NCBI RefSeq assembly: GCF_006345805.1
Contig: NC_043010.1
Location: 63,798,001 to 63,862,000, forward strand
DNA length: 64,000 nt
From: Octopus sinensis
Lineage: Eukaryota
Reading direction: 5' to 3'
Part shown: positions 3,819 through 51,978 of the stretch, in pieces
How the letters are laid out: every line of letters begins with the position of its first letter
Position numbering within the stretch: position 1 is the first letter of the stretch
Notes under the pieces: generated by a model
Database searches by the model: none
What the model saw: the letters and a program-made list of their open reading frames with translations, nothing else
What the model was told of the DNA's origin: nothing
Program-made: the position numbers and the translations under genes

Positions 3819-4502
3819 CTAAGAAGGACTCGTACTTGAACCAGCTTCCATTTCTCGGTGAACTATGGCAATAGTGTTCTTCATTTTGCTCCAGTTTACA
3901 ATCTCTGGAAATTCTCTGAGCGCTGTCAAAAGTTTTACTACTGCACCAGGCAAGAGACCGTCTGCTTGTCTCCAGGTATTAAATACTTTGAACTTCTGTA
4001 TGAACTCATTATCAGTTTCCTTAGCGTCAGTAATTTTCACAAAATCAAGACCTAATTCGATAATTACAGCTTCCCAACCACTAGCCACATGCATTAAGAC
4101 ACGAGCAAGCATTTTCTCGTCTAGATCTAAATCTTTAGTACTATCAATAATGGCATCCACTTCTAGGTCTACCAACGGTGAATTGTCAGTTTCTTCCACC
4201 AGTGTGGCCAAAGAATCTAATTCGCTTTCTCTCAGACACTTCAAAAATTCATCAAATATCCTAGAAATATTACTTCTGTCCTCATGTTTCATTTTCTCAA
4301 GAAGGAAATTGAGAAAACATCGATTTTTTCTTTCTATAATTGGCTCTGCTTCAACAGTATGCACTTCCTCCGGAATGAAGATTGAACTTGCAAAGAAGTA
4401 ATCAAGTATTGACCCTATAACTACTTCATCGATGCCGTCCACAAGTTGTTTGTAACTTCGTTGAATTTTGTTCCCATTGAAAACTTCTTGTGTGTCAGCC
4501 AT
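3819..4502 (-). CDS. CARD + death domain adaptor (RAIDD/CRADD-like architecture), divergent paralog, 227 aa
   Basis: ATG at 4502 (MADTQEV...) aligns with paralog starts. CARD pattern LVDGID..ILDYF..EE..VEAE..RKNRCFLNFL..F.EFLKCLRE..LA; DD pattern LARVLMHVASGWEAVIIELGL..I..FKVFNTWRQ..LLTAL. The 62-codon upstream extension of the ORF is probably untranslated. Confidence 0.85.
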   Translation of the reverse strand: MADTQEVFNGNKIQRSYKQLVDGIDEVVIGSILDYFFASSIFIPEEVHTVEAEPIIERKNRCFLNFLLEKMKHEDRSNISRIFDEFLKCLRESELDSLATLVEETDNSPLVDLEVDAIIDSTKDLDLDEKMLARVLMHVASGWEAVIIELGLDFVKITDAKETDNEFIQKFKVFNTWRQADGLLPGAVVKLLTALREFPEIVNWSKMKNTIAIVHREMEAGSSTSPS

Positions 4503-5359
4503 TTCCTTACCGGAACTGAGAGTGATCTCCCTTGAGTTTATGTTAGTTACAAACATTCGAGCACTTCTCGCGTAACACTTCTGGTTCTCCCATCCAGGAC
4601 ACCGTGCGTTATACATCTCCAGTAGGCGATGTTTAGGAATGACTCGCTGCAAAGTGGAAGGGTATTCTTTTCTGTTCTCATAGGGCACGTGACTATTCCG
4701 AAAATCCTGTTATAAACTGAATTCACCCGTTTCTCTTATACCACTCCTACCCTCTCTCTCATCTACAAATTCCCGCCCTTTGCTTTCTTCTCACTATCTT
4801 TCCTTACAACTGTAACGTTTTCTATCCGCATTTTACCTGCAACTATCAACAACCGCATCGTCTCAGTGACTTAAGGGTATGCAAGCGTTATGGATATGGT
4901 CTCTTCTCTCTGGACTAAATAACTAGCAATTTTAGATGGGGGAAAATAAATGTATATAGGGTAGACCAACCCAAACAACTGTGTTTTTAGTGTACAAGAA
5001 CAAAATTCCACCTGATAGATTAAATCAACGAGGTGAAAATGTGTTGGTTAGGTGGGGTTTTTGTTGCAACTAGAAAACGATTAGAAAATATTAACTTTTC
5101 TCCAGAGGCGATGAAATAAAATAACAGTCAAATATGAGGTTCCGTATAAGCGATTTCTCCCGCCACAGTTTTCAGATAGCGTGTCGGAATGCATGTACAT
5201 AATTATGTTTATTTTAATTAACTTTAATACACGTTTATACTTTGGGGTTAACGACAGTTCTTGCGTTATAACTCCGAGCTGAGCACAAGTTGTATGATAT
5301 GGAAATGAAATTTATACGCGAAATTGACCCACATTACAGCATTTTCGAGCGTCAACACA

Positions 5360-5462
5360 TTCAGTGTGCATGCGCAGACGTCGCTGCATAAAGAAGTTGA
5401 ACGGCAAACTTTTTTAGTGTATCCACGTAGAAAACTGACTGTCTAATCATACTCAGAGCACG
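5360..5462 (+). promoter_or_regulatory. Conserved proximal upstream region of the CARD-DD paralogs
   Basis: Near-identical before copies at 31498 and 51323, and recognisably similar before 38226 and 45349 (..agagcacgATG / ggagcatgATG / agaacacgATG). Contains TGTGCATGCGCA, one mismatch from the NRF1-type palindrome. Confidence 0.45.
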
Positions 5463-6119
5463 ATGGCTAACAAACAGCAGCTCAGGAACTCAATTAAAAT
5501 TAAACGATGTCGTGAGGATCTTGTGCAGGGGCTTGATGATGTGACTATAAAAAACATGGTTGATCATTTTTTATCTCAATCGTTTATCACCTCCGAGGAA
5601 AAGAATGTAATTCAAGCAAAAGAGACTGAACAAGAAAAAGCTCGGAAATTACTAGACGTTATTCACCGCAAAGTGGAAAGCCAGGATAAACAGAATAAGT
5701 CAAAATTATTCAATGGATTTGTGAAATGTCTAAGAGAACATAACCCGAGTTTAGCAACAACCGTGGAAAATGCTGATGACAGTGTGCCGAATGACGAAAG
5801 TGACAAAAGTAATATCCTTGAACGTGTTAAAAATATAGATTTGAATGAGAAAATGTTAAATCGTATTTTGATGTTTATAGGCTCTGGATGGGAATCTGTT
5901 GCTGCCGAATTAGATATTGATAGCGTAAAAATTAGTATTGCTAAGGCAAACAACCCACACAGCACACGAAACCAGATGTTTGAGGTATTTAATTTCTGGA
6001 GGCAAAGAGAAACCCTTGGACGTGGTGGATTAACAAAACTTATAAAAGCCATCAATTACTGTTCTGTTCATTGCAATTTCAACATGAATAAAATACTTGA
6101 ATGTATTGAAGACCCTTAA
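5463..6119 (+). CDS. CARD + death domain adaptor, copy A, 218 aa
   Basis: CARD motif (LVQGLD..MVDHFLSQ..EEK..IQAKET..EKARKLLD..F..CLREHNPSLA) followed by DD motif (LNRIL..IGSGWESVAAELDI..NP..NQMF..F..WRQ..LIKAI); one uninterrupted ORF. Confidence 0.9.
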   Translation: MANKQQLRNSIKIKRCREDLVQGLDDVTIKNMVDHFLSQSFITSEEKNVIQAKETEQEKARKLLDVIHRKVESQDKQNKSKLFNGFVKCLREHNPSLATTVENADDSVPNDESDKSNILERVKNIDLNEKMLNRILMFIGSGWESVAAELDIDSVKISIAKANNPHSTRNQMFEVFNFWRQRETLGRGGLTKLIKAINYCSVHCNFNMNKILECIEDP

Positions 6120-12899: not shown

Positions 12900-13860
12900 C
12901 ATCATCATTATTCAGTAGTCTTATTTTTATCATGTACTTTCACTGCACTACTGAGTGCTGCTCTGTGTGCCTTGGGTATGTGCTGTGGTTTGTTGTGGTG
13001 TTTTTAGTTTCATTGTATTGAAAGTGTTTTACATTGGATGTGTGTGGTGCCTACTGGTGCTGTTTTTTGTGTTACATACACTTGTAAGTCCTGGTGTCTG
13101 GGTTATGCATTTGTCTGAATGTTTTTTTGTTTTTTTATCATACCTAATGTGCCTTTACCATCATTTTTCTTTTGTCATTTCATAGTTTTGGCATAGCTTC
13201 CAGTGTATGTAGGTCCCAACTCTGTCATGTCTGTGAATATATTCTTTCTTAGCCAGAACTGGGCAGCCTGAGACGATATGATTTATTGCTTCTTCCCCAT
13301 CTGAGCCTCTCAGCCATTGTTGGGATTTTGCTTTGTCTATTTATCTTTAGTTCAACCCAATATTTGCCATTGTTTTATGATTTGCTGTTGTCCCAGTTTT
13401 AGTTTGAATTTCAGTTATTTTACAGCTTTTGTTGTTTCTTCTTTTTCTTCATAGTTTTTAGGTACTATGACTTTTTATTTGTATTTTTCAACTTTCTTAA
13501 AGACAGAAAACAATTTTTTTTTTTGCTTGTGTTTTGTGACAATTTGTATTAGTTTTCCTTGCTTCTGAAGTAGGTGTTTCTATAGTCTTATGGTGGTAAC
13601 TTTATAATAGTTTTCTAGCTGTATAAGGCCTTTACCACTTTCAGTACATTGCATATACAGGCTTTCTATTTCAGATTTTGGGTGGTGCATCCTAAATTTG
13701 GTCATATTTTTTGTTTTCCTGTCTATTTTGATTAGTTCATTTAGAGTCCAGTTAAGAATATTGTAGCTGTAACTTATAACTGGGACAGCTACAGTGTTGA
13801 TATCTATTATCTTGTTTTTCTCTTTGAGCTCTGTTTTCAATATTAATCTAACTTTATTAT
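12900..13860 (-). mobile_element. Degenerate non-LTR retrotransposon fragment (R4/Dong-like)
   Basis: ORF 13580-13840 (AVPVISYSYNILNWT..IDRKT..MHHPKS..LY..GKGL) is homologous to the post-RT region of the neighbouring element; simple-repeat tail near 12890. Confidence 0.7.
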
Positions 13861-13861
13861 T

Positions 13862-14365
13862 ATTATATTACAGGTCATGCTTCAAAAAATCTGCAAAGAA
13901 TTCTTGCAGTTCCAAGCAATGCTGAATTTTGTAGCTGTTCTACCTTCACACTTACACCATTCTCAGCCATGTTGGTAGTTGAGTGCTGATACTTCCAAGG
14001 GCACCAGTTACTATTGGTATCATGTCTACTCTCTTCATTGACCACAGACTTTGTATTTCCCACTTCAAATCATCATAGTTGTTTATTTTTTCTTCTTCTT
14101 TCTCTTTGATCCTGTAGTCACCAGGGCATGTTTTGTCGATTATCATACATGTTCTTTCTTTTTTCATTCGCCACAACAATGTCTGGTTTCTGATGTCTGG
14201 ACAGATGACCACACTGGATCATTTCATCCCACAGGAATTTGCAATTTTTGGTGACTCCTGGAGTTTGTTCATACCACGTCTTGATTCTTTGTTGGCCATG
14301 ACTTCCACAAAGTTCCCAATGGATCATTCTTGGCACATTGTCATGGCGGCTTTTGTACTTGCATT
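13862..14365 (-). mobile_element. Non-LTR retrotransposon 3' fragment with restriction-like endonuclease
   Basis: RMIHWELC..W..LWD..KPDIVV..IID..P...EK..Y.DL..W..IPIVTGALG..LQNSALLGTARIL spread across shifted frames; (TAA)n tail at ~13855. Confidence 0.8.
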
Positions 14366-14369
14366 GTGC

Positions 14370-20316: not shown

Positions 20317-20326
20317 TAATATATAT

Positions 20327-26267: not shown

Positions 26268-27290
26268 TGCGGGATACAAAGATGAAGCGTTGGAACAAAC
26301 AGTTAAAAGCTGCCGAATATTCACTCTATGGCGAGTCCTAGCCTCGTGTTGCTTAGTTTTTCCTTGGGGTTGGCCAGATTGGAGCAATCTCAAGGTTAAT
26401 CAGCTAAAATTGCGAGGATGATCTGGTTCTTGACTGAGGATAGACAGCTTCGAATGATGACCCATCCTTGTTATTTTTATATTTTATATCGTCTGTCTGG
26501 ATGTTTTGTTGTCCCTTTTTGTATCACCTGGTTGTCCGGATGTTTTGCGTTCTTGTCCCATTTTGTATTATATATATATATGCAAACCTACATACATCAT
26601 GCATGTACATACCTACGTATGTATATACACATGCATATATGGGTACAAGATGTCAAAAGAACATGAACAACATGAGAAACGAGAACATGAATAAACAAAA
26701 ACATGGAAAACGAACTTTTTTTTGAACTACGAAAGAAACAAATAGAGAAACTACACAGGCAACCTAAAGAACAATCCCTTCATCAGTGCCCTCTGTTTTA
26801 TCTACTCCGCATTTCGGACGTTTAGGGCAAGATGCATCTTCATCAAAACAGTCGTTCCTGCAAAGCAAATTAAATAAAATTTGGGATTTGCGGAGGGTTA
26901 ACGTAACAAAAACAGGACAGTAAGAACAAAGCAGCAAAAGCAAACGGTAAGGACTGTTTAGCCATAATGAAGTGAAGGGGTGAACACTGGAGAAACGAGC
27001 TTTGACAGGAGACAGGCAAAAATGTGTGTTGTCTCTTGTAGCGTAAGGAGGAGAAAGCAAGATAGCCGCTGGTCACGTGTGAGCAACGAGAGAGTCAAGG
27101 AGGAAGAGTGAGGGAGAGATAGAGAACGGTGAAGGGGAGGAGGAGAAATAGAGACAGGGTAGGAGAGAAAGAAAGAATAGAGGCAGATAGTAATATAAGT
27201 GCCGCATCAGAATTATTAAGATAAAACTTACTTGGAAATGGATGCATGGCGTTCGATCATATAATATAAAAATATAAATTATATATGTAT

Positions 27291-28349
27291 TGTTACGGAC
27301 CACCTGCCGTCGTCCGGTCGATCAGCGAATGTTCGCCACGGAAACTCGGAGAGAGAGACAACAACAACTACAACAGCAGCCGCAAGAAGAGATACAGAGG
27401 CAATCGAGAGAGACACAAAGAAGGCAATTGGCTCACATTTAACGTACTAGTTTATATGACTATTAATTATTACATCAAATATATATCAGATACATTTAAA
27501 GAGGACACGTCGAATTAAACAACTCAATACATCATACAGGTATACCACAGATCAAAGCATTTAAACTGTCCGGAGACAACAGTTCTGTTTCAAATCACAT
27601 TAACGTTACAGTTCAAAGGACATTAAAAGCATATACAGTTCAATGTTCGTTACACAGTTCTTTTCAACAACTCTGTACACAATGTCTTTACACAGTTCAC
27701 ATTGTTCTTTTTTTACTGTCTCATTTCTTTTACATTTCAATACATCGATTCTTTTTCCTTCTTTTTCTTCACATATCAATACACAATTCACGTACCTTAG
27801 TTCCTACTATAATAGCCAATGTCTCATACTGTACCCCATCTCTCTTAGCACTGCTAAATCCAACTTGCTAACCGCTTGCCTTGAATTCCAAATCCTCACC
27901 CCTAAATCCAACCGCTCGCCTTGACTACCAAATACCGACTGCCCAAAAACCTCTTGCTCTGTCACTACCCGCAATCTCTCTTAGCTCTGTCGCAATCACT
28001 CTCTCTCTCTCTTAGCTCTGCAATACTCTCTGCCTGTCTTCCTCTGCCCCTCATTCTCTCTCACTCTACTGTCATCTCTCATGACAGCTCCCAGATTCCT
28101 TAATCTGTCTTTCTCAGCCCTTCATCCTCTCACTCTACTGTATCTCTCATGACAAGCCCCCAGATTCCTTAATCTGTCTTTTTCGGCACTCAATATTTCT
28201 CTCACTGTCTCTCACACACTGAACTCTAATTCACCTGACGGGGTCGGGAAGTTTCCCCAGAGCTAATTAATCAACCCGCATCTGGCAGAACAATGGATTC
28301 ATTGCCAAATGTAGGTCGCCGTCAACGGTCCTCAAATTGAACCACAACA
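27291..28349. mobile_element. Possible solo LTR (duplicate at 47116-48174)
   Basis: TGTT...AACA termini, ~1.06 kb, embedded in a TA tract; no clean target-site duplication seen. Confidence 0.35.
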
Positions 28350-29279
28350 ATATATATATGTGCATACACACAGACATTTATTGGAATATAATGCGTTCGT
28401 ATATATATATATACACACACAGAGACATTTATTGGAATATAATGCGTTTGTATATATATAGTCACACACATACACACACATTTATTAGAATATAATGCGT
28501 CTGTATATATGATACATATATAATATAAAACCACATTATAAATAGAAATCTCAAATCGGGAGAAAAGATGGAAAAAGAGAAACTTTCTAGCTTAAAGTAA
28601 CATCATGTCTTTCATTGCCATCCACTGCCACTTCGTCTGTTGTTTTACTATTCTCTGCCTACAGCATGACCGAAACCAAGCGTTTTATTTCATAAGATGA
28701 CAATCTGTCCGTCATTCCCAATAGAAACATTATAGTGAAAGGCACTCGTGGTGCGACTTGCAATGTTGCAATTCGATATTGAAAGTCGAAACGTGAGGAG
28801 GGAATGTTGCACTTGTGAGGAGAGAAGGATTTGGTGAGCGGACAGGATTTGGAGGAGGAACAGGCATTGGTTGCATTGCCGCAAGGCAGCGTAAGCCTTG
28901 CTTGTTCGCAGATTGAGGAAGTGTTTTTGTAGAAGATGCATACACGCACGCACACACGCGCGCGGTATATATCGGTTCAAGGGAGATCACTTTCAGATCT
29001 GAGAATAACATTGTTTGGGAATGAGGTTAAAAAAATGTCCAATTACGTCGGTACTTATATACAAAGAGGAACAACTTTTTTGAAAATAATTATCTCTGTT
29101 TCAGCAGAGTTATATTCTCTAACTTCATTTTATGTTCATTTGGCTTTACTGTAGAAATTGTTGCGAAAATCCCTATATTTTTCCACGTTACATATCTGGT
29201 TTAATGAAATTTCGTTGGACAAGGTGGACCATCACCACACCCCACTTCCGTTTTTTTTTAAATATATAATCAAAACCTA

Positions 29280-30265
29280 GGCAGAGGTAAAGAAGACGCA
29301 GAACATTTAAAAAAATTCCTTGCCAAAGAGATGCAGATGAAACCTGATGAATGGGAAACCAAACTGAAAGAAAGATGGTTCTCTATCCTTCAGCAGATTG
29401 AATTTCAAGAACAATACTCCGAGTTGTTAATTTTGTGCCCGTTCTTAATTAGCACACCAGCACAAAATGCTAATGATGAGCGTGTCTTTTCGAGGATGAA
29501 TGTTCAGTGGACTGATGAACGAAATACGTTGGGTGTGGCTACTGTAGAAGCTATCTTACAATGCACATGGAACCTTAACGGTCAATATAAAGCATTTTAT
29601 AGGCATGTGTTAGAAAACAAGGACCTGTTAACAAAAGTGAACTATAACTGAAGGTAAAGGTTCAAGTTTAATTCTCATGCGGTCTGTTAAGAAAATTTTG
29701 CATGTAAGTTTATCAGTTTTGTTTCTTTGCACGTTCTCCATATGAAACACAACTTTTTAGTCTCTTTCTGTGTTTGGATTAAATAATAATTTTCTAATTT
29801 CTTTCCTTTGCATTTTTCTATTGTCTCTATTGAATAAGAATTTTGCAATGATTTCACTTTCTCAGTATTTCTCTTAGATATCTTTATTGCCGGTATTAAA
29901 TAATAATATTCAAATGCTTTCATACAAAAAGATTTTTTATTCATATTGTCTCTATTTGTCATTGAATAAAAAAAATTACAATGATTTCGATCTAACAGAA
30001 TTTTTTTGCCTATTTCTTTATTTCTGTATTAAAGAAATATTTTCAAATTATTTCACTTTAACAGAATTTTTTTAAAGCTTGTATTAAATGATTTTGAAAT
30101 GATTTTACTTTTGTTTTTCTCATAACCCATTAAAATAATTGCTTTATGTTTTTAACCCTTGTCTCTACTTTTATATAATATATTGTTCTGGGTGTGTCGG
30201 CATGCATAAATTTATATATAGAGAGCTATTTAAAAATGTTCCATATTTCTAATCTGGCAACCCTA
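29280..30265 (+). mobile_element. hAT transposon 3' remnant (dimerisation domain and right TIR)
   Basis: ORF 29331-29651 W...YSEL..L..LISTPAQNANDERVFSRMN..WTDERN.L; element ends TCTGGCAACCCTA (reverse complement of TAGGGTTGCCAGA). Confidence 0.8.
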
Positions 30266-30761
30266 GTTAAGTGTGGGGTTTTTGTTGCGTTGCAACTAGA
30301 AAACGATTAGAAAATATCAATTTGTTCATATTGAACAAAAGGGATGTACTCTTTCCAGTGTGTGTCAGTGCTTTGTGTCTATAAATCAGAATGTTGGATC
30401 AGCGCCAGCGTCAGAGCGTCGGATATGTTATGCAGTATTTCATCCGACTCTCTTTGGTCTGTGTTGAATCTCGTCAATATAAACCTTACGTTTCATCTCT
30501 CCAGAGGCGATGAAATAAAATATCAGTCAAATACGTGGTTCCGTATAAGCGATTCCTCCCGCCACAGTTTTCAGATAGTGCGCATATATTAAAGACAGTT
30601 ATGTTATATAATTGCATATAACTGAATGTTACAGTGAATTGATACGTTATCTATTTTATAGATTTAATAAAAGTTAATTATATTTTAATAATATTTATTT
30701 AGGAACACAAAAGTTTGAAAAAAAATCGTTTTTAAAGAGAAGAAAAGGGTCATTTAATTTG

Positions 30762-31155
30762 TACTCTCTTACTCTTCTACTTGTTTCAGTCATTTGACTG
30801 CGATCATGCTGGAGCACCACCTTTAGTCGAATAAATCGACCCAGGACTTATTCTTTGTAAGCCTAGTACTTATTCTATTAGTCACTTTTTGCTGAACCGC
30901 TAAGTTACGGGGACGTTAACACACCAGCATCGGTTATCGAGCGGTGGTGGGAGGACAAACACACACAAACAACAAACTCATACATATACGACGGGCTTCT
31001 TTCAGTTTCCGTCTACCAAATCCCCTCACAAGGCTTTGATAAGCCCAAGGCTAAAGTAGAAGACACTTGCCCAAGGTGCCACACTGTGGGACTGAACCCA
31101 GAACCATGTGGTTGGGAAGCAGGCTTTTTGCCACACAACCACTCCTGCACCTATG
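30762..31155 (-). mobile_element. tRNA-derived SINE upstream of copy B
   Basis: Reverse complement of the family at 10738. Confidence 0.75.
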
Positions 31156-31497
31156 TAATTTAGAAATTCACTCAGAAACTAAAAGTTTTAGCTTCTCTAA
31201 AATCGATTAAACTGAAAGTCGGAATGCATGGACATAATTATGTTTATTTGAATTAACTTTAATACACGTTTATACTTTGGGCTTAACGACAGTTCTTGCG
31301 TTATAACACCGAGCTGAGCACAAGTTGTATGATACGGAAATGAAATTTATACGCGAAAGTGACCCACATTACAGCATTTTCGAGCGTCAACACATTCAGT
31401 GTGCATGCGCAGACGTCGCTGCATAAAGAAGTTGAACGGCAAACTTTTTTAGTGTATCCACGTAGAAAACTGACTGTCTAATCATACTCAGAGCACG

Positions 31498-32154
31498 ATG
31501 GCTAACAAACAGCAGCTCAGGAACTCAATTAAAATTCAGAAATGTCAGGTGGTACTTGTGGACGGGCTTGATGGTGTGACAGTAACAAAGATTGTTGATC
31601 ATTTTTTATCTCAATTAGTTATCAATGACGAGGAAAAGAATGCAATTCAAGCAAAAGAGACTGAACAAGAAAAAGCTCGGAAATTACTAGACGTTATTCG
31701 CCCCAAAGTGAAAAGCCAGGATAAACAGAATAAGTCAGAATTATTCAATGGATTTGTGGAATGTCTAAGAGAACATAACCCGAGTTTAGCAACAGCCGTG
31801 GAAATTGCTGATGACAGTGTGCCGAATGACGAACTTGACATAGATAATATCCTTGAACGTGTTAAAAATATAGATTTGAATGAGAAAATGTTAAATCGTA
31901 TTTTGATGCGTATGGGCTCTGGATGGGAATCTGTTGCTTCTGAATTAGGTATAGAGAGCATAAAAATTGATAATGTTAGGCAAGACAACCCATACTGCAC
32001 ACATAACCAGAAGTTTGAGGCATTTAATTCCTGGAGAAAAAAACAAGCCCATGGGCGTGGTGCATTAAAAAAACTTATAAAAGCCATCTATTACTGTTCT
32101 GTTAATTGCAATGTAAACATGAATAAAATACTTGAATGTATTGAAGACCCTTAA
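31498..32154 (+). CDS. CARD + death domain adaptor, copy B, 218 aa
   Basis: Colinear without gaps with copy A (about 75% amino-acid identity by hand count); intact ORF. Confidence 0.9.
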   Translation: MANKQQLRNSIKIQKCQVVLVDGLDGVTVTKIVDHFLSQLVINDEEKNAIQAKETEQEKARKLLDVIRPKVKSQDKQNKSELFNGFVECLREHNPSLATAVEIADDSVPNDELDIDNILERVKNIDLNEKMLNRILMRMGSGWESVASELGIESIKIDNVRQDNPYCTHNQKFEAFNSWRKKQAHGRGALKKLIKAIYYCSVNCNVNMNKILECIEDP

Positions 32155-34425
32155 AAAGAAAAGAAGGAAGAATAACGCGCAGTTTTTACAATGTTGTATG
32201 TTAATATATTAAAAAAAATACAGTTTTTCCGATACACTTTTTGATATGGACATAAAGAATCGACACTTCAAAAATGAAATTATCCTACACTAAACGGCAT
32301 AATTCTTGCGTTGTGGACTGATATTAAACATCGACATGCGAAAAGTGAAATAATGCATTATCAACAGACATTATATTTCAATTATTGAATCCTTTTCAAC
32401 GGACAGATTACTTTCGACTTTCACTTTGGGAAGTTGCCGTCTTAAAGTAACATCATGTCAAACGCGGAAGTATGCGACTCTTTCCTTCATTATTTTTATT
32501 GTCGACTAAAACTCTTCACTTTTTGATGTTTACATAAAATTTTTCTATGATAAAAATATATATTATTTTGCTTTAGTATCAACCGCTATAATTTCATTTA
32601 ATTCTATACATATTTTATAACCCTAAATTTAATAGAAATGAAGACTGTCTTATTTAGAGGTAACTCTCTAAGGAAACAACGAACTTCAACGCAATGATAT
32701 AACATTTTGGAACTTATTCTGGGCGATCCATCGGTATAGGTACACACGTGACTTTGTTTAGATTTCTGAAGATAAGAGAAACCCTTTTCTCCCACCACTA
32801 ACCCTAACACAAACTCTAAAAAAAAAACAACACTTTCTTGAAATGTATCCGGTATTTATACCGAAGTTATGCTATTATTCTGTATTGTTGATAATAAACT
32901 TGCTGAAATGGTAAGGATGTAGTTGGATGAATCTGAATTTTCAACCAAAATGAATGAAGGTTTACTTTGTGTGTTTGTAGTGTATGATAAAGATAGAAAG
33001 GCGTGTTACGTGATGGATATTAATGATAAGGTGGTTCTGCAACATTAAAACCAACCTTTCAGCAATGAATTTCCTTTAGAATACAGACATGTATATATGA
33101 TGGATTTAACTGTGCTGGATAGCTACAGAAGGCGCCCTATCGATTTAGATTTTCCCTATACCTTTCTTAAAACGCACATCTTTAATGGCATTTTCTAGAA
33201 ATACGTATTCAATAGTGTTGATTGCGAATAAATTTATTGTTAAAAAAATTGTTAAGACCATTGTAAGATATAACGTATCTCTTGAAAATTTCGTTAAACG
33301 TATGATTTTAACAAAGTTCGGTGGAAAGCGCAAAAGAAAACGAAACAACTTGTTTTACATCCACCAGAAAAACCCCTTTATATTTAATTTTTAATTATTC
33401 TTTTTAATGAAAACCTCCGTTTTCGGGTACAGAGTATACGAATCTGGAAAAAAGAAAAAAAAGTGTCCAAAATTGGCATTTCAGAATTTCAGTTCCCAGC
33501 AATTTTTCCATTAATCACATTTTTCAGAATTAAAAAAACTTTTAAATTATTATTTTCTTTACTTTTTTTTTACCAAATGTGTGAAAAAATACGGAGATTA
33601 TGATTCTCAAAAAAATTTTTGTAAAATTTCAAAAAAAAACCCCAAATATTACCCCCGTCCCCCTCGCAGTTTACAGCATAAACTAGAAGTTTTGAAACCC
33701 CTTTTGTCATTGCACATGCGTTGACTGCTACTTGAAAAGAGATACTTTGGAAGTTGTGCGGTGATGGGGGGGGGGGCGATATGCGGAAAAGGTTTTTAAA
33801 ATTCTTAAAATTTTATTTTCGGTTTTAAAATGCGGACGGCCCGAATCTGTTGTTCGTTTCCCTTTACCATTTCGAAAGAACTTTTTAAATATTTCGAAAT
33901 CAAAATTGGTTGCACATGGTGGATATGTAACCCATCCGCTTCCTGTACATTAAATTTGCCTTCAATCAGTCTATCCACATGCTAGAAATAACAGCCAGTT
34001 CTCACACAAACTCTTATTCGCACATATTTTTTAATAAAAGTTTTTGCATATACGCCTAGGAGTCGATTGGGGATGAGCTTCGACAAAACTGCCATACTGG
34101 CCGGTTTTGTTTCTTGGCGATAAAATTTCAGAGAAATTTTCTGCATTAAAAAAAGGTATTATAAAAAAGTTAAAATAATAACTTATTGCCAGGTACTTGG
34201 GCATCTAGCCTAAGAAATGCATTGCCTATCTTGTAAAACTATACTGAGCCAAATTTAGAAAGTGAAGTGGGCCGCAAGATCTCACTCAGTGCGTAGGTTT
34301 CTGTGCAACAAGAAAAGTTGTAAGAAGTCGGCGAAAAACCAAATACCACTTCGGAAAGGAACTTGGTTTGGTCATAGCAATTTGTCTGGCAAAATGTTAA
34401 AATAAAGTGTTCATTTTTCATTTGT

Positions 34426-35206
34426 TCTTAAAGAGTTGTTAAAGGAAACCCTCATTGCATGCTAGAAGCAGGTATGGCTGAGTGCGTCCAGGACTATGAG
34501 AGATTCTCACCTGAAGATATTCAGCATGAGACTGTCAGCAATTCAGTGAAACTGGGAAAGGTTTTGATGACATCACACAAGAAGAGGTCAACGATATGTT
34601 GGATTTAACGAAGTCTGCCAGCAAAGTGGAGGCAGAAGCGCCAGATCCAGAGGAAGAGGAGGATGTGGTGGGCCTGGCAATTGAACATCTATCTGACCTT
34701 TTAAGGACAGCAAAGGAATTGCAAGGGAAGGCTGAAACAGGGGATCCCTATATGGTTCGGTCTCTCCAATTTAAAAAAGCTGTCGATGTGGCTATGCAGA
34801 CATATAAAACACTCCTCACCATCTTGAAGAAACAACGACACCAACTTCCCATTACAACGTTCCTCAAACTCACCAAGAAAACCTTGCATGAAGATACGAT
34901 ATCCCCTAAAACATCTCAAGAAGGGACGTCACCAGAAGAGCTTTAAATGTTTGCTGTGCAGTAATTACCTTTATTATTTTCATCGTCGTCTTAAATCAGT
35001 ATCATTCATTATTGGTGAGTAAACATACATTTTACATCATTCTTAATTAAATCATTATTAAATATTATGTGCAGGTGTGTGTGTAATATTTTAAGTTATA
35101 TTTTGACATTTATAGGCATTTTATAGACCACATCCGATATTCACGCATTTTCAGTATTTGTGGGAGCTCGGGGAATGTAACAAGCATGAACACCGGGGGA
35201 TGACTG
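34426..35206 (+). mobile_element. Tigger/pogo-like transposon 3' portion with TIR
   Basis: Near-identical to 63728-64000; ORF 34596-34946 resembles a transposase C-terminus; ends CGGGGGATGACTG followed by TA. Confidence 0.75.
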
Positions 35207-38225: not shown

Positions 38226-38780
38226 ATGATGGCTGCCTTACAGCAAATGTCGAACGCAAAGATAATTCAGCGATATTATGAGGTTCTTGTGAATAGTTTA
38301 GATAGTGTGGGTATAAAAAAGATTATTGATCGTCTTTTGAGTCATTCATTAATTTTGATCGAGAACAAGAATGAGATTCAAACAGAAAAAACCCCCGAAG
38401 ATAAATCTCGGAAATTACTCGATATCATTTTAAATCAAGTGAGAACCGAGGACAATGAGAATAAGTCGGAATTTTTTGACGAATTCATGAAAGTTCTAAA
38501 TGAAGTCGACAAAAATTTGGCATCATCCATGAAGAAGGAAGCTGAGGAGAAAGCTAAGAAGGAAGCTGAGGAGAAAGCTAAGAAGGAAGCTGAGGAGAAA
38601 GCTAAGAAGGAAGCTGAGGAGAAAGCTAAGAAAGAAGCTGAGGAGAAAGCTAAGAAGGAAGCTGAGGAGAAAGCTAAGAAGGAAGCTGAGGAGAAAGCTA
38701 AGAAGGAAGCTGAGGAGAAAGCTAAGAAAGAAGCTGAAGAGAAAGCTGAGGAGGAAGAAACACTCGCGGCCCTAATGTGA
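38226..38780 (+). CDS. CARD-only paralog with a (KKEAEEKA)9 charged tail, 184 aa (copy D)
   Basis: First ~102 aa align to the family CARD (LVNSLD..IIDRLLS..IQTEKTPEDKSRKLLD..F.EFMKVL); shares upstream and downstream flanks with the other copies. Confidence 0.75.
   Translation: MMAALQQMSNAKIIQRYYEVLVNSLDSVGIKKIIDRLLSHSLILIENKNEIQTEKTPEDKSRKLLDIILNQVRTEDNENKSEFFDEFMKVLNEVDKNLASSMKKEAEEKAKKEAEEKAKKEAEEKAKKEAEEKAKKEAEEKAKKEAEEKAKKEAEEKAKKEAEEKAKKEAEEKAEEEETLAALM
38532..38747 (+). repeat. In-frame 24 bp minisatellite, 9 units
   Basis: AAGAAGGAAGCTGAGGAGAAAGCT; units 5 and 9 carry the AAGAAAGAA variant. Confidence 0.95.
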
Positions 38781-40881: not shown

Positions 40882-41050
40882 ATTATTGATCATCTTTTGA
40901 GTCATTCATTAATTTCGATCGAGAACAAGAATGAGATTCAAACAGAAAAAAACCCCCGAAGATAAATCTCGGAAATCACTCGATATCATTTTAAATCAAG
41001 TGAAAACCGAGGACAATGAGAATATGTCGGATTTATTTAACGAATTCATG
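40882..41050 (+). pseudogene. Orphan CARD fragment copied from copy D
   Basis: Close match to 38322-38489 with one extra A in the A-run; no start codon or 3' part. Confidence 0.85.
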
Positions 41051-41658: not shown

Positions 41659-42430
41659 TCAAGTGTAATGTAGGTTGTATGTGGATATGTACGGCATTAT
41701 TTTTGGGGAATGTGTGTTGTTGTGTTGAACTTTTCTCAAGGTTTCTATGTCAATTTGTGTAGCACCTCTGATTCCATGCTCTATGAGTTGAACTGGGTAG
41801 TGTCTGTCAATTAGGGTGTTTTTGAGTTCTTGCAGTCTAAAGTCTCTGGTGTTTTGTTCTGACACTATTGTGAATATCCTTCTTGCAAGGTTGAAGGGGA
41901 TGTTTGTTCTGGTGTGTATTGGGTGGCATGAATTAAATAGTAGATATTGTTTAGCGTCTGTGGTTTCGTAAAATATGTCCATTTCTTCTTTTAGGTTTAT
42001 CCAAGAATGGAAGCTCCTTTTGGTTGTACTCCATTGCGAACTGTATGTTTGGGTTGACGCTGTTCAATAGTCTTTTGAATTTCAGGAGTTTATCTGTGTT
42101 TTTTTTTTTATTCCAGAGTATGAAACAGTCGTCTGGGAATATTTTCCAATTCACTTTTATGTATTGGGAAAGGGGGTTTCCAAAGGTAGATAAAGATTCC
42201 TGGTATATTATTACTTCCAAGTAGCCCATTGTTAGGTTCGCAATGACTGGTGCTGCCCTAGTACCCATAGCAATTCCGGATTTTTGTCGGTAAAACGTAT
42301 TGTCAAACATGAAGCGGTTATTTCGGAGGATGAATTCAACCGATTTAGTTATGAATTCTTTACTGATCCTTTTTGGTATTTCTTCCGGAAATTGGTCCAA
42401 CCAGAACTGAATTGCCTCTAGCCCATAATT
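41659..42430 (-). mobile_element. Penelope-like element reverse transcriptase fragment
   Basis: F.FDNTFYRQKSGIAMGTRAAPVIANL.M, DDCF, LPFLD, then YLLFNSCHP..NIPFNLARRI. Confidence 0.85.
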
Positions 42431-42804
42431 CAGTTGTGGCTGGACAATTCAGACCTGGCAATTCAGTAACTATGTTACTATACGCAAAATTTGTCACATT
42501 TTTCTAACATAACGATTTAAATATATTCTTTAACCATATAACACAAGCCTTCAGTAGCTTTTTCACTCTTTTTTGTCTTTTATACATCCAGCCACGTGCT
42601 TTCACATACCAACTCTCTCACATCTATATCTATTTATATATATATATATATACACACACACAAAATGGGACAAGAACTGAAAACATTATCGCAAATAGTT
42701 ACGTGGTAGCAGGGCGTTCTAGAACTAGCAGCCAAATACATCGAATGCAATCGAAAAAAAAAACTATTTCATACTGAGGTTACGAACGGGTCTTTTATAA
42801 AATA

Positions 42805-45348: not shown

Positions 45349-45463
45349 ATGTCTGGAATACAGCAGTTGTTGAATACAACTATAATTCAGCGAAGTTATA
45401 GGGAACTTGTGGAGAGTTTTGAAAGTGTGACTATACAAAGAATCATCGATTACCTTTTGATTC
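45349..45463 (+). pseudogene. 5' stub of another CARD-family gene (copy E), truncated by a retroelement
   Basis: Translates as MSGIQQLLNTTIIQRSYRELVESFESVTIQRIIDYLLI, homologous to the family N-termini, with the family upstream sequence; homology stops at TGTAGTG (45464). Confidence 0.85.
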
Positions 45464-46135
45464 TGTAGTGTAGAGAAGGACCGGAACTAAGGTAGTACGC
45501 ATGTCCTGTCGGAAGTGGGGACTGTGGGTCCCACCAGAATGGCCGCAGTGGGCATGCGGTGTTGGCGAAATGTAAGCAGTAAGTTGGCAGTGGATAGCGT
45601 ACGAGAGCAGACCTGTTAGATGGTACGGCGACAGACAGAGTACGCGGACATTGTGAGTGACCCTTCCAGATCGATAGGTAAGACTACCGCAATTCTCCCT
45701 CTGCTTCTGTCTTTTCCTCCTTCACATCACAAGCTATTTCGGCTCAAAAGGAAAAAAAAAAATGATTGGTATGGTTCCTGTTTCGAACGAGACGTTTAGG
45801 CTATTTTGCGGCGAGGGAGACACCGCCGCTTGGTTGATAAAAATTAAGTTGGTGGCAAGACACCACGGTATATATGACCTACCGAGTTTCATTCCATTGT
45901 ACCTCGATGGATCGGCGTTGGCACTATACCTGGAAATAGAGGAGAAGGACCAGTTAAGCGAAGAAAAAATAGATGTTCGGCTGATAGAGGCTTTTACGGA
46001 AGGGTCATTTATGGCATATGGTTCACTGGGGAAAGCAAAGTGGACGAGTGAAGAGGTCGACGTGTTTGCCACGTCAGGAGATTGGCCAGACTTGCGGGAT
46101 ACAAAGATGAAGCGTTGGAACAAACAGTTAAAAGC
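45464..46135 (+). mobile_element. Gypsy-like LTR retrotransposon 5' part (probable LTR and gag fragment)
   Basis: Starts with TG; ORF 45762 F.GEGD..AWL.K.KLVA....LPSFIPLYLDG.ALALYLE...VDVFA, continuing RRLARLAG after a frameshift, resembles Gypsy gag. Confidence 0.7.
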
Positions 46136-49104
46136 TGCCGAATATTCACTCTATGGCGAGTCCTAGCCTCGTGTTGCTTAGTTTTTCCTTGGGGTTGGCC
46201 AGATTGGAGCAATCTCAAGGTTAATCAGCTAAAATTGCGAGGATGATCTGGTTCTTGACTGAGGATAGACAGCTTCGAATGATGACCCATCCTTGTTATT
46301 TTTATATTTTATATCGTCTGTCTGGATGTTTTGTTGTCCCTTTTTGTATCACCTGGTTGTCCGGATGTTTTGCGTTCTTGTCCCATTTTGTATTATATAT
46401 ATATATGCAAACCTACATACATCATGCATGTACATACCTACGTATGTATATACACATGCATATATGGGTACAAGATGTCAAAAGAACATGAACAACATGA
46501 GAAACGAGAACATGAATAAACAAAAACATGGAAAACGAACTTTTTTTTGAACTACGAAAGAAACAAATAGAGAAACTACACAGGCAACCTAAAGAACAAT
46601 CCCTTCATCAGTGCCCTCTGTTTTATCTACTCCGCATTTCGGACGTTTAGGGCAAGATGCATCTTCATCAAAACAGTCGTTCCTGCAAAGCAAATTAAAT
46701 AAAATTTGGGATTTGCGGAGGGTTAACGTAACAAAAACAGGACAGTAAGAACAAAGCAGCAAAAGCAAACGGTAAGGACTGTTTAGCCATAATGAAGTGA
46801 AGGGGTGAACACTGGAGAAACGAGCTTTGACAGGAGACAGGCAAAAATGTGTGTTGTCTCTTGTAGCGTAAGGAGGAGAAAGCAAGATAGCCGCTGGTCA
46901 CGTGTGAGCAACGAGAGAGTCAAGGAGGAAGAGTGAGGGAGAGATAGAGAACGGTGAAGGGGAGGAGGAGAAATAGAGACAGGGTAGGAGAGAAAGAAAG
47001 AATAGAGGCAGATAGTAATATAAGTGCCGCATCAGAATTATTAAGATAAAACTTACTTGGAAATGGATGCATGGCGTTCGATCATATAATATAAAAATAT
47101 AAATTATATATGTATTGTTACGGACCACCTGCCGTCGTCCGGTCGATCAGCGAATGTTCGCCACGGAAACTCGGAGAGAGAGACAACAACAACTACAACA
47201 GCAGCCGCAAGAAGAGATACAGAGGCAATCGAGAGAGACACAAAGAAGGCAATTGGCTCACATTTAACGTACTAGTTTATATGACTATTAATTATTACAT
47301 CAAATATATATCAGATACATTTAAAGAGGACACGTCGAATTAAACAACTCAATACATCATACAGGTATACCACAGATCAAAGCATTTAAACTGTCCGGAG
47401 ACAACAGTTCTGTTTCAAATCACATTAACGTTACAGTTCAAAGGACATTAAAAGCATATACAGTTCAATGTTCGTTACACAGTTCTTTTCAACAACTCTG
47501 TACACAATGTCTTTACACAGTTCACATTGTTCTTTTTTTACTGTCTCATTTCTTTTACATTTCAATACATCGATTCTTTTTCCTTCTTTTTCTTCACATA
47601 TCAATACACAATTCACGTACCTTAGTTCCTACTATAATAGCCAATGTCTCATACTGTACCCCATCTCTCTTAGCACTGCTAAATCCAACTTGCTAACCGC
47701 TTGCCTTGAATTCCAAATCCTCACCCCTAAATCCAACCGCTCGCCTTGACTACCAAATACCGACTGCCCAAAAACCTCTTGCTCTGTCACTACCCGCAAT
47801 CTCTCTTAGCTCTGTCGCAATCACTCTCTCTCTCTCTTAGCTCTGCAATACTCTCTGCCTGTCTTCCTCTGCCCCTCATTCTCTCTCACTCTACTGTCAT
47901 CTCTCATGACAGCTCCCAGATTCCTTAATCTGTCTTTCTCAGCCCTTCATCCTCTCACTCTACTGTATCTCTCATGACAAGCCCCCAGATTCCTTAATCT
48001 GTCTTTTTCGGCACTCAATATTTCTCTCACTGTCTCTCACACACTGAACTCTAATTCACCTGACGGGGTCGGGAAGTTTCCCCAGAGCTAATTAATCAAC
48101 CCGCATCTGGCAGAACAATGGATTCATTGCCAAATGTAGGTCGCCGTCAACGGTCCTCAAATTGAACCACAACAATATATATATGTGCATACACACAGAC
48201 ATTTATTGGAATATAATGCGTTCGTATATATATATATACACACACAGAGACATTTATTGGAATATAATGCGTTTGTATATATATAGTCACACACATACAC
48301 ACACATTTATTAGAATATAATGCGTCTGTATATATGATACATATATAATATAAAACCACATTATAAATAGAAATCTCAAATCGGGAGAAAAGATGGAAAA
48401 AGAGAAACTTTCTAGCTTAAAGTAACATCATGTCTTTCATTGCCATCCACTGCCACTTCGTCTGTTGTTTTACTATTCTCTGCCTACAGCATGACCGAAA
48501 CCAAGCGTTTTATTTCATAAGATGACAATCTGTCCGTCATTCCCAATAGAAACATTATAGTGAAAGGCACTCGTGGTGCGACTTGCAATGTTGCAATTCG
48601 ATATTGAAAGTCGAAACGTGAGGAGGGAATGTTGCACTTGTGAGGAGAGAAGGATTTGGTGAGCGGACAGGATTTGGAGGAGGAACAGGCATTGGTTGCA
48701 TTGCCGCAAGGCAGCGTAAGCCTTGCTTGTTCGCAGATTGAGGAAGTGTTTTTGTAGAAGATGCATACACGCACGCACACACGCGCGCGGTATATATCGG
48801 TTCAAGGGAGATCACTTTCAGATCTGAGAATAACATTGTTTGGGAATGAGGTTAAAAAAATGTCCAATTACGTCGGTACTTATATACAAAGAGGAACAAC
48901 TTTTTTGAAAATAATTATCTCTGTTTCAGCAGAGTTATATTCTCTAACTTCATTTTATGTTCATTTGGCTTTACTGTAGAAATTGTTGCGAAAATCCCTA
49001 TATTTTTCCACGTTACATATCTGGTTTAATGAAATTTCGTTGGACAAGGTGGACCATCACCACACCCCACTTCCGTTTTTTTTTAAATATATAATCAAAA
49101 CCTA

Positions 49105-50090
49105 GGCAGAGGTAAAGAAGACGCAGAACATTTAAAAAAATTCCTTGCCAAAGAGATGCAGATGAAACCTGATGAATGGGAAACCAAACTGAAAGAAAGA
49201 TGGTTCTCTATCCTTCAGCAGATTGAATTTCAAGAACAATACTCCGAGTTGTTAATTTTGTGCCCGTTCTTAATTAGCACACCAGCACAAAATGCTAATG
49301 ATGAGCGTGTCTTTTCGAGGATGAATGTTCAGTGGACTGATGAACGAAATACGTTGGGTGTGGCTACTGTAGAAGCTATCTTACAATGCACATGGAACCT
49401 TAACGGTCAATATAAAGCATTTTATAGGCATGTGTTAGAAAACAAGGACCTGTTAACAAAAGTGAACTATAACTGAAGGTAAAGGTTCAAGTTTAATTCT
49501 CATGCGGTCTGTTAAGAAAATTTTGCATGTAAGTTTATCAGTTTTGTTTCTTTGCACGTTCTCCATATGAAACACAACTTTTTAGTCTCTTTCTGTGTTT
49601 GGATTAAATAATAATTTTCTAATTTCTTTCCTTTGCATTTTTCTATTGTCTCTATTGAATAAGAATTTTGCAATGATTTCACTTTCTCAGTATTTCTCTT
49701 AGATATCTTTATTGCCGGTATTAAATAATAATATTCAAATGCTTTCATACAAAAAGATTTTTTATTCATATTGTCTCTATTTGTCATTGAATAAAAAAAA
49801 TTACAATGATTTCGATCTAACAGAATTTTTTTGCCTATTTCTTTATTTCTGTATTAAAGAAATATTTTCAAATTATTTCACTTTAACAGAATTTTTTTAA
49901 AGCTTGTATTAAATGATTTTGAAATGATTTTACTTTTGTTTTTCTCATAACCCATTAAAATAATTGCTTTATGTTTTTAACCCTTGTCTCTACTTTTATA
50001 TAATATATTGTTCTGGGTGTGTCGGCATGCATAAATTTATATATAGAGAGCTATTTAAAAATGTTCCATATTTCTAATCTGGCAACCCTA
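49105..50090 (+). mobile_element. hAT 3' remnant (duplicate)
   Basis: Duplicate of 29280-30265. Confidence 0.8.
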
Positions 50091-51322
50091 GTTAAGTGTG
50101 GGGTTTTTGTTGCGTTGCAACTAGAAAACGATTAGAAAATATCAATTTGTTCATATTGAACAAAAGGGATGTACTCTTTCCAGTGTGTGTCAGTGCTTTG
50201 TGTCTATAAATCAGAATGTTGGATCAGCGCCAGCGTCAGAGCGTCGGATATGTTATGCAGTATTTCATCCGACTCTCTTTGGTCTGTGTTGAATCTCGTC
50301 AATATAAACCTTACGTTTCATCTCTCCAGAGGCGATGAAATAAAATATCAGTCAAATACGAGGTTCCGTATAAGCGATTCCTCCCGCCACAGTTTTCAGA
50401 TAGTGCGCATATATTAAAGACAGTTATGTTATATAATTGCATATAACTGAATGTTACAGTGAATTGATACGTTATCTATCTTATAGATTTAATAAAAGTT
50501 AATTATATTTTAATAATATTTATTTAGGAACACAAAAGTTTGAAAAAAAATCGTTTTTAAAGAGAAGAAAAGGGTCATTTAATTTGTACTCTCTTACTCT
50601 TCTACTTGTTTCAGTCATTTGACTGCGATCATGCTGGAGCACCACCTTTAGTCGAATAAATCGACCCAGGACTTATTCTTTGTAAGCCTAGTACTTATTC
50701 TATTAGTCACTTTTTGCTGAACCGCTAAGTTACGGGGACGTTAACACACCAGCATCGGTTATCGAGCGGTGGTGGGGGGACAAACACACACAAACAACAA
50801 ACTCATACATATACGACGGGCTTCTTTCAGTTTCCGTCTACCAAATCCCCTCACAAGGCTTTGATAAGCCCAAGGCTAAAGTAGAAGACACTTGCCCAAG
50901 GTGCCACACTGTGGGACTGAACCCAGAACCATGTGGTTGGGAAGCAGGCTTTTTGCCACACAACCACTCCTGCACCTATGTAATTTAGAAATTCACTCAG
51001 AAACTAAAAGTTTTAGCTTCTCTAAAATCGATTAAACTGAAAGTCGGAATGCATGAACATAATTATGTTTATTTGAATTAACTTTAATACACGTTTATAC
51101 TTTGGGCTTAACGACAGTTCTTGCGTTATAACTCCGAGCTGAGCACAAGTTGTATGATATGGAAATGAAATTTATACGTGAAATTGACCCACATTACAGC
51201 ATTTTCGAGCGTCACCACATTCAGTGTGCATGCGCAGACGTCGCTGCATAAAGAAGTTGAACGGCAAATTTTTTTAGTGTATCCACGTAGAAAACTGACT
51301 GTCTAATCATACTCAGAGCACG

Positions 51323-51978
51323 ATGGCTAACAAACAGCAGCTCAGGAACTCAATTAAAATTAAACGATGTCGTAATGATCTTGTGCATGGGCTTGATGAT
51401 GTGACTATAAAAAACATGGTTGATCATTTTTTATCTCAATCGTTTATCAATGACGAGGAAAAGAATGGAATTCAAGTAGAAAAGACTCCACAAGACAAAG
51501 CTCGGAACTTACACGACGTTATTCGCCGCAAAGTGGAAAGCCAGGATAAACAGAATAAGTCAAAAATATTCGATGGATTTGTGAAATGTCTAAGAGAACA
51601 TAACCCGAGTTTAGCATTAACCGTGGAAAATGCTGATGACAGTGTGCCGAATGACGAACTTGACATAGATAATATCCTTGAACGTGTTAAAAATATAGAT
51701 TTGAATGAGAAAATGTTAAATCGTATTTTGATGCGTATGGGCTCTGGATGGGAATCTGTTGCTTCTGAATTAGGTATAGAGAGCATAAAAATTGATAATG
51801 TTAGGCAAACAACCCACACAGCACACATAACCAGAAGTTTGAGGCATTTAATTCCTGGAGAAAAAAACAAGCCCATGGGCGTGGTGCATTAACAAAACTT
51901 ATAAAAGCCATCAATTACTGTTCTGTTAATTGCAATGTAAACATGAATAAAATACTTGAATGTATTATGGACCCTTAA
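51323..51978 (+). pseudogene. CARD + DD copy C with a -1 frameshift in the death domain (189 aa as assembled)
   Basis: One base missing near 51803-51810; the original frame continues NPHSTHNQKF...KILECIMDP* to 51978. Confidence 0.8.

What the first reader, a model, noticed from the sequence alone, without database searches (positions are those of the whole stretch)
3819..51978. Birth-and-death cluster of intronless CARD-death domain adaptor genes
Seen: seven related loci in 48 kb (three intact CARD-DD, one frameshifted, one CARD-only with repeat tail, one retroelement-truncated stub, one orphan fragment), most sharing upstream and downstream flanks. Known: CARD+DD is the RAIDD/CRADD architecture, a single-copy PIDDosome/caspase-2 adaptor in vertebrates. 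Inference: a lineage-specific, expanded and fast-turnover death-fold signalling family, plausibly for innate immunity or cell death, in what looks like an octopus. I do not know of a description of such a cluster but cannot check the literature.
Basis: partly seen in the sequence, partly recalled or inferred. Interest (0 to 1): 0.85.

Follow-up and report, generated by a model that had tools for sequence, protein, structure and literature searches.

The report
Fast-evolving octopus cell-death adaptor cluster
An octopus carries a tandem cluster of genes for two-part 'death-fold' adaptor proteins, likely relatives of the usually single CRADD gene, whose youngest copies differ several times more in their protein-coding DNA than in the DNA beside it and share swapped segments, which likely reflects an arms race acting on a switch that is predicted to recruit cell-death enzymes (caspases).

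Summary
Confirmed and extended. All seven loci are at the stated places: three intact CARD+death-domain frames, one frameshifted copy, one CARD with a repeat tail, one LTR-cut stub, one fragment. Three more lie past the window; two distant ones are on contig C8. They are the likely CRADD/RAIDD co-orthologues of an Octopus.

Cautions: G may be an allele of C assembled in tandem (4,268 identical bases beginning at an assembly gap). Expression evidence is weak, no site-model test was run, and no partner is shown. Some copies carry automatic 'CRADD' labels, but I found no paper on the cluster. One paper calls CRADD absent from octopus; another treats it as a single constrained activator. New variant of a known kind.

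The parts
3819..4556 (-). Copy A: intact A-type CARD+DD gene (227 aa from ATG 4502, 245 aa from ATG 4556); the conserved member of head-to-head pair 1
   Evidence: 245 of 245 identical to record P0085; dN/dS against H 0.70
4557..5462 (.). Spacer between divergently oriented A and B; parts are homologous to the spacer of the second pair (H/I, beyond the window); motif TGCATGCGCA at 5367
5463..6119 (+). Copy B: intact B-type CARD+DD gene, 218 aa
   Evidence: Pfam CARD and Death over cut-off; model with two helical bundles, mean pLDDT 85.8; 208 of 218 identical to O. vulgaris CAI9733330
26168..26267 (.). Assembly gap (100 N) at which the duplicated C block begins
26268..34428 (+). 8.2-kb block holding C; 97.5% like 46093-54239, first 4,268 bases identical
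31498..32154 (+). Copy C: intact B-type CARD+DD gene, 218 aa
   Evidence: 209 of 218 identical to O. vulgaris CAI9733328
38229..38780 (+). Copy D: CARD plus 24-bp repeat tail (38532-38757); most of the death domain deleted
   Evidence: predicted protein is in NCBI, listed without a name (P0012)
40882..41050 (+). Fragment E: 169 bp, 95% like the CARD of D, frameshifted, no shared flanks
45349..45463 (+). Stub F: first 37 codons with a homologous 5' flank, cut by a retroelement that starts at about 45465
46093..54239 (+). 8.2-kb block holding G (duplicate or other haplotype of the C block)
51323..51978 (+). Copy G: mosaic B-type gene (B-like CARD, C-like death domain) with one base missing at codon 162

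Best explanation
This is a tandem array of single-coding-exon CARD+death-domain genes, likely the octopus co-orthologues of CRADD/RAIDD, whose B-type copies diverge mostly at amino-acid-changing sites and share swapped segments, likely because parasites or pathogens select for new interaction surfaces on adaptors that are predicted to oligomerise through the death domain and recruit CARD caspases. Shown: architecture, fold model, copy inventory, the excess of amino-acid change, mosaicism, conservation of the A type, and CARD caspases in the same genome. Inferred: (i) the death domain assembles with an upstream death-domain protein or with other copies; (ii) the CARD recruits caspase-2 or caspase-Y and triggers cell death or inflammatory signalling; (iii) unequal crossing-over and gene conversion create and shuffle copies, and deletion, frameshift and retroelements remove them; (iv) the selective agent is infection. 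Odds: real multigene array 0.97; diversifying or balancing selection on the B type 0.85; caspase-recruiting adaptor 0.7; infection as driver 0.55.
For: Kinship: best PDB sequence hit of B and of C is the human RAIDD death domain (E 8e-7 and 2.5e-5). Model residues 121-216 fit RAIDD 109-199 at Z 12.0, rmsd 2.2, 91 aligned, and residues 7-105 fit CARDs at Z up to 13.7. An abalone CARD-DD query matches only this array in the genome, 5 of 5 matches. The family profile matches a mammalian CRADD-like protein at 97.8% probability. Selection: coding against flank differences 70/656 vs 19/701 (B-C), 59/656 vs 18/701 (B-G), 44/654 vs 15/702 (C-G), Fisher P 2e-9 to 4e-5. dN/dS is 1.56, 1.86, 1.56 unweighted (bootstrap P 0.049, 0.020, 0.052) and 1.92, 2.29, 1.90 with transitions weighted twice (P 0.004-0.009). 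65 of 69 variable codons change the residue. Replicate: the C8 pair differs at 23/588 coding vs 2/792 flank sites, 19 changing vs 1 silent codon in the first 190. Mosaic: 70 informative sites fall in 8 runs, reached by 0 of 20,000 shuffles. B and C differ at 11 of 18 residues of the stretch matching RAIDD helix 3 against 54 of 218 overall (P 0.0007); PMC4977500 (passages) calls that helix important for the PIDD complex. Partners: 62 caspase-domain matches, intronless CARD caspases and a caspase-2-like locus. PMC11463336 (passages, section 10) proposes CRADD as the activator of molluscan CARD caspases.
Against: No functional data. The three dN/dS pairs share sequences, and the unweighted test is borderline; B-I and C-I are 1.28 and 1.20, not significant over the whole gene. 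Silent divergence (0.04-0.085) also exceeds flank divergence (0.02-0.03), so flanks may be homogenised and inflate the contrast. The helix-3 cluster is borderline in a window-free scan (P 0.051). Family profiles rank RIPK1 and FADD death domains above RAIDD, and the tree has no non-CRADD outgroup, so orthology is not proven. The caspase-Y-like array shows CARD dN/dS of 0.37-0.64 in 9 of 10 pairs, so no matching acceleration in the presumed partner. Expression rests on runs only guessed to be RNA and chosen for holding C.
Confidence: 0.55

Rival explanations
1. Wiring, not warfare: after duplication, copies diverged at their interfaces to pair with different caspases or receptors and avoid cross-talk (developmental or senescence cell death), with no pathogen involved.
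For: Caspases are also expanded. Changes fall in both domains. A protein labelled CRADD changed in skin mucus with captivity and senescence (PMC11431876, passages).
Against: Orthologues keep changing between close species (B 10 of 218, C 9 of 218, J 24 of 200 residues), patches move between copies, and copies die often, which fits continuing selection better than one-off tuning. Caspase-Y CARDs are mostly under purifying selection.
Confidence: 0.2
2. Neutral turnover: redundant B-type copies have lost constraint, and conversion homogenises their flanks, making coding sequence look fast.
For: 4 of 7 window loci are broken. Silent sites also exceed the flanks. The unweighted dN/dS test is borderline.
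Against: Loss of constraint predicts dN/dS near 1, not 1.9-2.3. B and C are intact with orthologues in O. vulgaris. The same contrast appears on C8, while the alignment that covers the zinc-finger gene in the same duplicated block has only 13 mismatches in 3,498 bases.
Confidence: 0.12
3. Part of the count is an assembly artefact: G and C (and K1 and K2 on C8) are alleles from two haplotypes laid in tandem, and the frameshift in G may be a base error. This changes the copy number, not the family or the selection signal, which would then be allelic (balancing). Compatible with the best explanation.
For: The C block starts at an assembly gap with 4,268 identical bases. The C8 duplicate also lies near a gap and is about 99% identical. 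In DNA run X1 a contig in the twice-assembled flank has depth 68, no more than the 85 of a single-locus flank.
Against: At 51477 part of the depth in DNA run X1 carries the letter found only in G (letters per copy), so G's CARD is probably not a consensus error. The 3' flanks of C and G differ at 3.2% with indels. Contig depths are noisy (53-127 among the pieces compared) and are no copy numbers.
Confidence: 0.35

Closest known systems
CRADD/RAIDD (PIDDosome adaptor of caspase-2)
   Same: N-terminal CARD plus C-terminal death domain, about 200-230 aa; best single-sequence PDB hit; RAIDD G128, W131, F164 and W167 align to identical residues in B (numbering from the offset).
   Different: At least 10 loci in one array plus 2 elsewhere, against one gene in Aplysia (PMC9334734, passages); single coding exon; dN/dS above 1; the residues matching Y146 and R147 are not kept and differ between B and C; no PIDD identified.
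Lophotrochozoan CRADD as sole CARD-caspase activator (PMC11463336)
   Same: Same family; an O. bimaculoides CRADD is scored present in its tables; caspase-2 and caspase-Y are present.
   Different: That paper treats CRADD as a unique, constrained gene (dN/dS 0.91). Here it is a turning-over multigene array with a conserved and a variable type.
CARD-only decoys (ICEBERG, CARD16/17/18; recalled)
   Same: Copy D and truncated G keep a CARD without a whole death domain and could act as dominant-negative regulators.
   Different: They derive from an adaptor, not a caspase; expression is not shown.
Head-to-head sensor/helper NLR pairs and variable resistance-gene clusters of plants (recalled)
   Same: Divergent pair with a conserved and a variable member; unequal crossing-over, conversion and pseudogenes.
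   Different: No NTPase or LRR part; an analogy only, untested.

Membership tests
CRADD/RAIDD | N-terminal CARD | tested here: met
   Pfam over cut-off for B, C, D, G, I; just under for A and H; none for J; fold Z up to 13.7
CRADD/RAIDD | C-terminal death domain, no other domain | tested here: met
   Pfam Death over cut-off for B, C, I; Z 12.0 to RAIDD DD; for the A type by homology and by profile hits to death domains
CRADD/RAIDD | Orthology to molluscan and vertebrate CRADD | tested here: inconclusive
   Abalone query finds only this array; 22 family rows form one side of a branch, 98/94, against gastropod and deuterostome rows; but no non-CRADD outgroup, and profiles rank RIPK1 and FADD higher
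CRADD/RAIDD | CARD binds and activates caspase-2 | not tested
   A caspase-2-like gene exists, its CARD split by an intron; no complex with it was folded
PIDDosome | PIDD partner present and PIDD-binding residues kept | tested here: inconclusive
   Peptidase_S68 search blank, but its control rang nowhere; of 6 ZU5 matches one was examined and has a single ZU5-UPA-Death; R147 position not kept; papers disagree (PMC11463336 none; PMC9389742 Pidd1 in bobtail squid)
Birth-and-death multigene family | Tandem paralogues of different ages with pseudogenes | tested here: met
Immune genes under diversifying selection | dN/dS above 1 and recombination between copies | tested here: met
   Pairwise counts only; no site model
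Immune genes under diversifying selection | Expression in immune tissue or induction by infection | not testable with these tools
   Runs are contigs of unlabelled libraries
Sensor/helper gene pair | The two products bind and act together | tested here: inconclusive
   Head-to-head layout occurs twice; nothing further bears on it

The most novel reading that the evidence does not exclude
Octopuses, with only 2 NACHT matches in this genome and no APAF-1 scored for O. bimaculoides (PMC11463336), have turned the CRADD adaptor itself into a variable intracellular surveillance system: head-to-head pairs in which a hypervariable, recombining B-type protein is the bait or sensor for pathogen factors and a conserved A-type protein passes the signal to an expanded set of CARD caspases, with CARD-only relics as brakes.
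Probability: 0.2. Interest if true: 0.85.

Novelty: new variant of a known kind. Interest (0 to 1): 0.62.

Why it matters
How molluscs activate initiator caspases without APAF-1 is open. One paper proposes a single, constrained CRADD as the only activator (PMC11463336) and another states that CRADD is absent from the octopus genome (PMC9389742). An array with a conserved type and a fast, recombining type contradicts both pictures. It gives small, single-exon, easily cloned candidates for testing which adaptor drives which caspase. Signalling adaptors seldom show this degree of amino-acid-biased change (general knowledge), so it points to an unknown conflict in cephalopod immunity, with a practical link to disease and senescence in farmed octopus.

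Tried and rejected
Complex prediction of A with B: no verdict (score 0.00, alignments not used); not evidence either way. 'A is PIDD- or RIPK1-like and B RAIDD-like': rejected, since both profiles rank RIPK1 first. 'E and F are halves of one interrupted gene': rejected, they lie in the wrong order and E is 95% like D. Co-acceleration of caspase-Y CARDs: seen in 1 of 10 pairs only. Sequencing runs: no holder on record as RNA. The bin over D has no or nearly no cover in the three RNA-guess runs, which shows nothing about silence, and no contig in them carried the G-only letter at 51477 (415 rows not shown). PIDD search uninformative. The zinc-finger tally was inflated by off-register repeat hits and is not used; only the on-diagonal alignment is quoted. 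Foldseek gave no match at E 0.001 or better, top row RAIDD DD at 0.021. The Atlas search gave CRADD-named clusters at 0.89-0.90, leads only. Earlier scan findings: none. Literature: nine searches, seven of them on octopus, cephalopod or invertebrate CRADD and death-domain expansion; no listing described this cluster. The library lacks most subscription papers. The supplement of PMC11431876 could not be read, so which copy it detected is unknown.
Full report
OBSERVATION. An ORF scan and self-comparison of the window recover seven related loci. A (minus strand, 4502 to 3819), B (5463-6119) and C (31498-32154) are open frames of 218-227 codons. G (51323-51978) lacks one base at codon 162. D (38229-38780) is a CARD followed by 9.4 copies of a 24-bp unit; after its stop lie a remnant of the first death-domain helix in another frame and then B-like 3' flank, so most of the death domain was deleted. 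E is a 169-bp frameshifted piece 95% like D. F is 37 codons with a homologous 5' flank, cut by a retroelement. Pfam CARD passes its cut-off in B, C, D and G and falls short in A (20.0 of 23.9 bits); Death passes in B and C. The model of B (19-row alignment, mean pLDDT 85.8) has two helical bundles and a loose linker. They fit solved CARDs (Z up to 13.7, rmsd 1.9, 88 aligned) and the RAIDD death domain (Z 12.0, rmsd 2.2, 91 aligned). The tool warns that helical bundles reach such Z values easily, so this supports the Pfam calls rather than standing alone.

EXTENT AND ORIGIN. The genome holds more copies: H (A-like, minus strand, L007:2577-3269) and I (B-like, L007:6410-7057) 2.5-7 kb past the window end, J about 57 kb past it, and K1 and K2 on contig C8. 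No copy was found in the 60 kb upstream. A/B and H/I are both head-to-head, and their spacers share homologous pieces, so the pair was likely duplicated as a unit. A motif TGCATGCGCA lies 96-111 bases before the ATG of B, C, G and I, and on the + strand nowhere else in the 224 kb searched; its likeness to an NRF1 site is recalled. Homologues are octopod proteins: O. vulgaris CAI9733328 and CAI9733330 (labelled CRADD) and CAI9733324, three O. bimaculoides proteins, Argonauta GAB1604215 and GAB1604217, and O. sinensis models, one identical to H. Near-consecutive accessions suggest the cluster exists in those species; I could not see their DNA. In a tree of 30 rows (left out: two long-branch rows, a near-duplicate of K2, and mosaic G), the 22 family rows, six of them unnamed, are one side of a branch (98/94) against gastropod and deuterostome CRADD-like rows. 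A types group with one Argonauta protein (88/94) and J with the other (100/99), so the types are old. An abalone CARD-DD query matches only this array, 5 of 5 matches. Single B and C sequences hit RAIDD first in the PDB, but family profiles rank RIPK1 and FADD higher, so co-orthology with CRADD is likely, not proven.

SELECTION AND RECOMBINATION. Among B, C and G the coding sequence differs at 6.7-10.7% of sites and the adjacent 700 flank bases at 2.1-2.7% (Fisher P 2e-9 to 4e-5); more distal flanks differ at 3.2-3.3%. Pairwise dN/dS is 1.56, 1.86 and 1.56 with unweighted site counts (bootstrap P 0.049, 0.020, 0.052) and 1.9-2.3 with transitions weighted twice (P 0.004-0.009). Of 69 variable codons, 65 change the residue. 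Against I the whole-gene values are 1.28 and 1.20, not significant, though the CARD part gives 3.10 and 2.40 (P 0.022, 0.008). A against H gives 0.70. A is 245 of 245 identical to a record that also lies on a contig of the length of the O. vulgaris records (inferred), whereas B, C and J differ from their O. vulgaris matches at 10 of 218, 9 of 218 and 24 of 200 residues. G is a mosaic: up to codon 105 it follows B at 25 of 30 informative sites, after it C at 35 of 40; 8 runs, reached by 0 of 20,000 shuffles. It also shares CARD residues with the O. vulgaris B orthologue that B here lacks. B and C differ at 11 of 18 residues matching RAIDD helix 3 (P 0.0007 against the rest; 0.051 in a window-free scan). 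PMC4977500 (passages) names that helix and R147 as important for PIDD binding; the matching residue is Ile in B and Asn in C. The C8 pair repeats the pattern: 23 of 588 coding against 2 of 792 flank differences, 19 changing against 1 silent codon. Limits: the pairs are not independent, silent sites also exceed the flanks, and no site model was run.

ASSEMBLY CAUTION. The 8.2-kb block with C begins exactly at a 100-N gap, and its first 4,268 bases equal those of the block with G. The C8 duplicate is similar. Either these are very recent duplications followed by conversion, or two haplotypes laid in tandem (about 35%). Contig depths in DNA run X1 do not settle it. B and C are separate genes in any case, each with its own O. 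vulgaris match.

EXPRESSION. Weak evidence. Three runs guessed to be RNA hold contigs of 614-703 bases that cover the 3' end of C or its 3' flank, to about 600 bases past the stop. One 190-base contig differs from G by two letters and one gap, the same counts as intact C gives. The runs were chosen for holding C and are not shown to be RNA. A proteomic paper lists a 'death domain-containing protein CRADD' in O. vulgaris skin mucus (PMC11431876, passages); its supplement was unreadable, so the copy is unknown.

PARTNERS. The genome gives 62 caspase-domain matches among 67 candidates, including intronless CARD caspases resembling caspase-Y and a multi-exon caspase-2-like gene. It gives 2 NACHT matches among 41 candidates. 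No PIDD was identified, but the search was uninformative. Caspase-Y CARDs show dN/dS under 1 in 9 of 10 pairs.

MECHANISM. Most likely these proteins work like CRADD: death-domain assembly upstream, CARD recruitment of an initiator caspase downstream (inferred from the family; PMC11463336, passages and section 10). The amino-acid-biased change, patch exchange and frequent gene death in the B type, beside a conserved A type, fit an arms race best (0.55). Rivals are partner-specificity tuning (0.2) and neutral decay with flank homogenisation (0.12). The boldest reading is a sensor/helper pair system (0.2).

WHAT IS KNOWN. Seen: PMC11463336 (passages, section 10, supplement rows): one conserved CRADD, no PIDD or APAF-1 in molluscs. 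PMC9389742 (passages): CRADD absent in bobtail squid and 'the octopus genome', Pidd1 and Apaf1 present in the squid. PMC9334734 (passages): one CRADD in Aplysia. PMC8917759 and PMC4346834 (passages): CRADD named in oysters, no expansion stated in those passages. Nine searches listed no description of this cluster; most subscription papers are not in the library. Databases already label some copies CRADD automatically.

VERDICT. Real, larger and more structured than first reported. A new variant of a known kind; interest 0.62.

Noticed in passing
L007:2577-3269 (-), L007:6410-7057 (+), and G000:C14 about 63,919,454-63,920,056 (+), in L012/L013: Three further members of the array beyond the window end: H (intact, A type; NCBI XP_029645546), I (intact, B type) and J (divergent third type, 200 aa). 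H and I form the second head-to-head pair.
   Followed up: yes
window 51323-51733 and L007:6818-7057: NCBI model XP_036365012 equals G for 137 residues and I for the last 79; no in-frame canonical splice pair joins them. Either an annotation patch or the trace of a recombinant G/I transcript from another haplotype.
   Followed up: partly
L033-L035 (G000:C26:17.20-17.23 Mb): Three intronless genes with a CARD followed by tandem repeats of roughly 120-130 aa with no Pfam family in the two frames scanned; one spans more than 2,000 codons in two frames.
   Followed up: no
L039, L047-L050 (G000:C26:15.12-15.16 Mb): Array of intronless CARD caspases like caspase-Y, with changed active-site motifs (NTCQ, NTCE); dN/dS mostly 0.4-0.6.
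   Followed up: partly
G000:C5, C19, C30: Large arrays of caspase genes with long open frames; 62 matches in all, some on small unplaced contigs.
   Followed up: no
L021-L025 (G000:C24:4.96-5.03 Mb and C11600): Four tandem CARD-bearing exons of two types plus an unplaced near-copy.
   Followed up: no
L017-L020 (G000:C8:24.69-24.73 Mb): An 18.8-kb duplicated block near a gap, holding family copies K1 and K2 and a C2H2 zinc-finger gene; about 99% identical over most of its length, with the K coding sequence standing out.
   Followed up: yes
window 20319-26152: A 5.8-kb AT-rich simple repeat with strong GC skew, ending at the assembly gap.
   Followed up: no
window 13580-16460 and 41659-42448: Broken reverse-transcriptase-type retroelement frames on the minus strand; hAT and DDE transposase remnants at 29262-29651, 49087-49476 and 63425-63742.
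   Followed up: no
L004 (about 20.6-22.9 kb before the window start): An open 784-codon C2H2 zinc-finger frame is the nearest other long cellular-looking frame upstream, useful as a synteny anchor.
   Followed up: no
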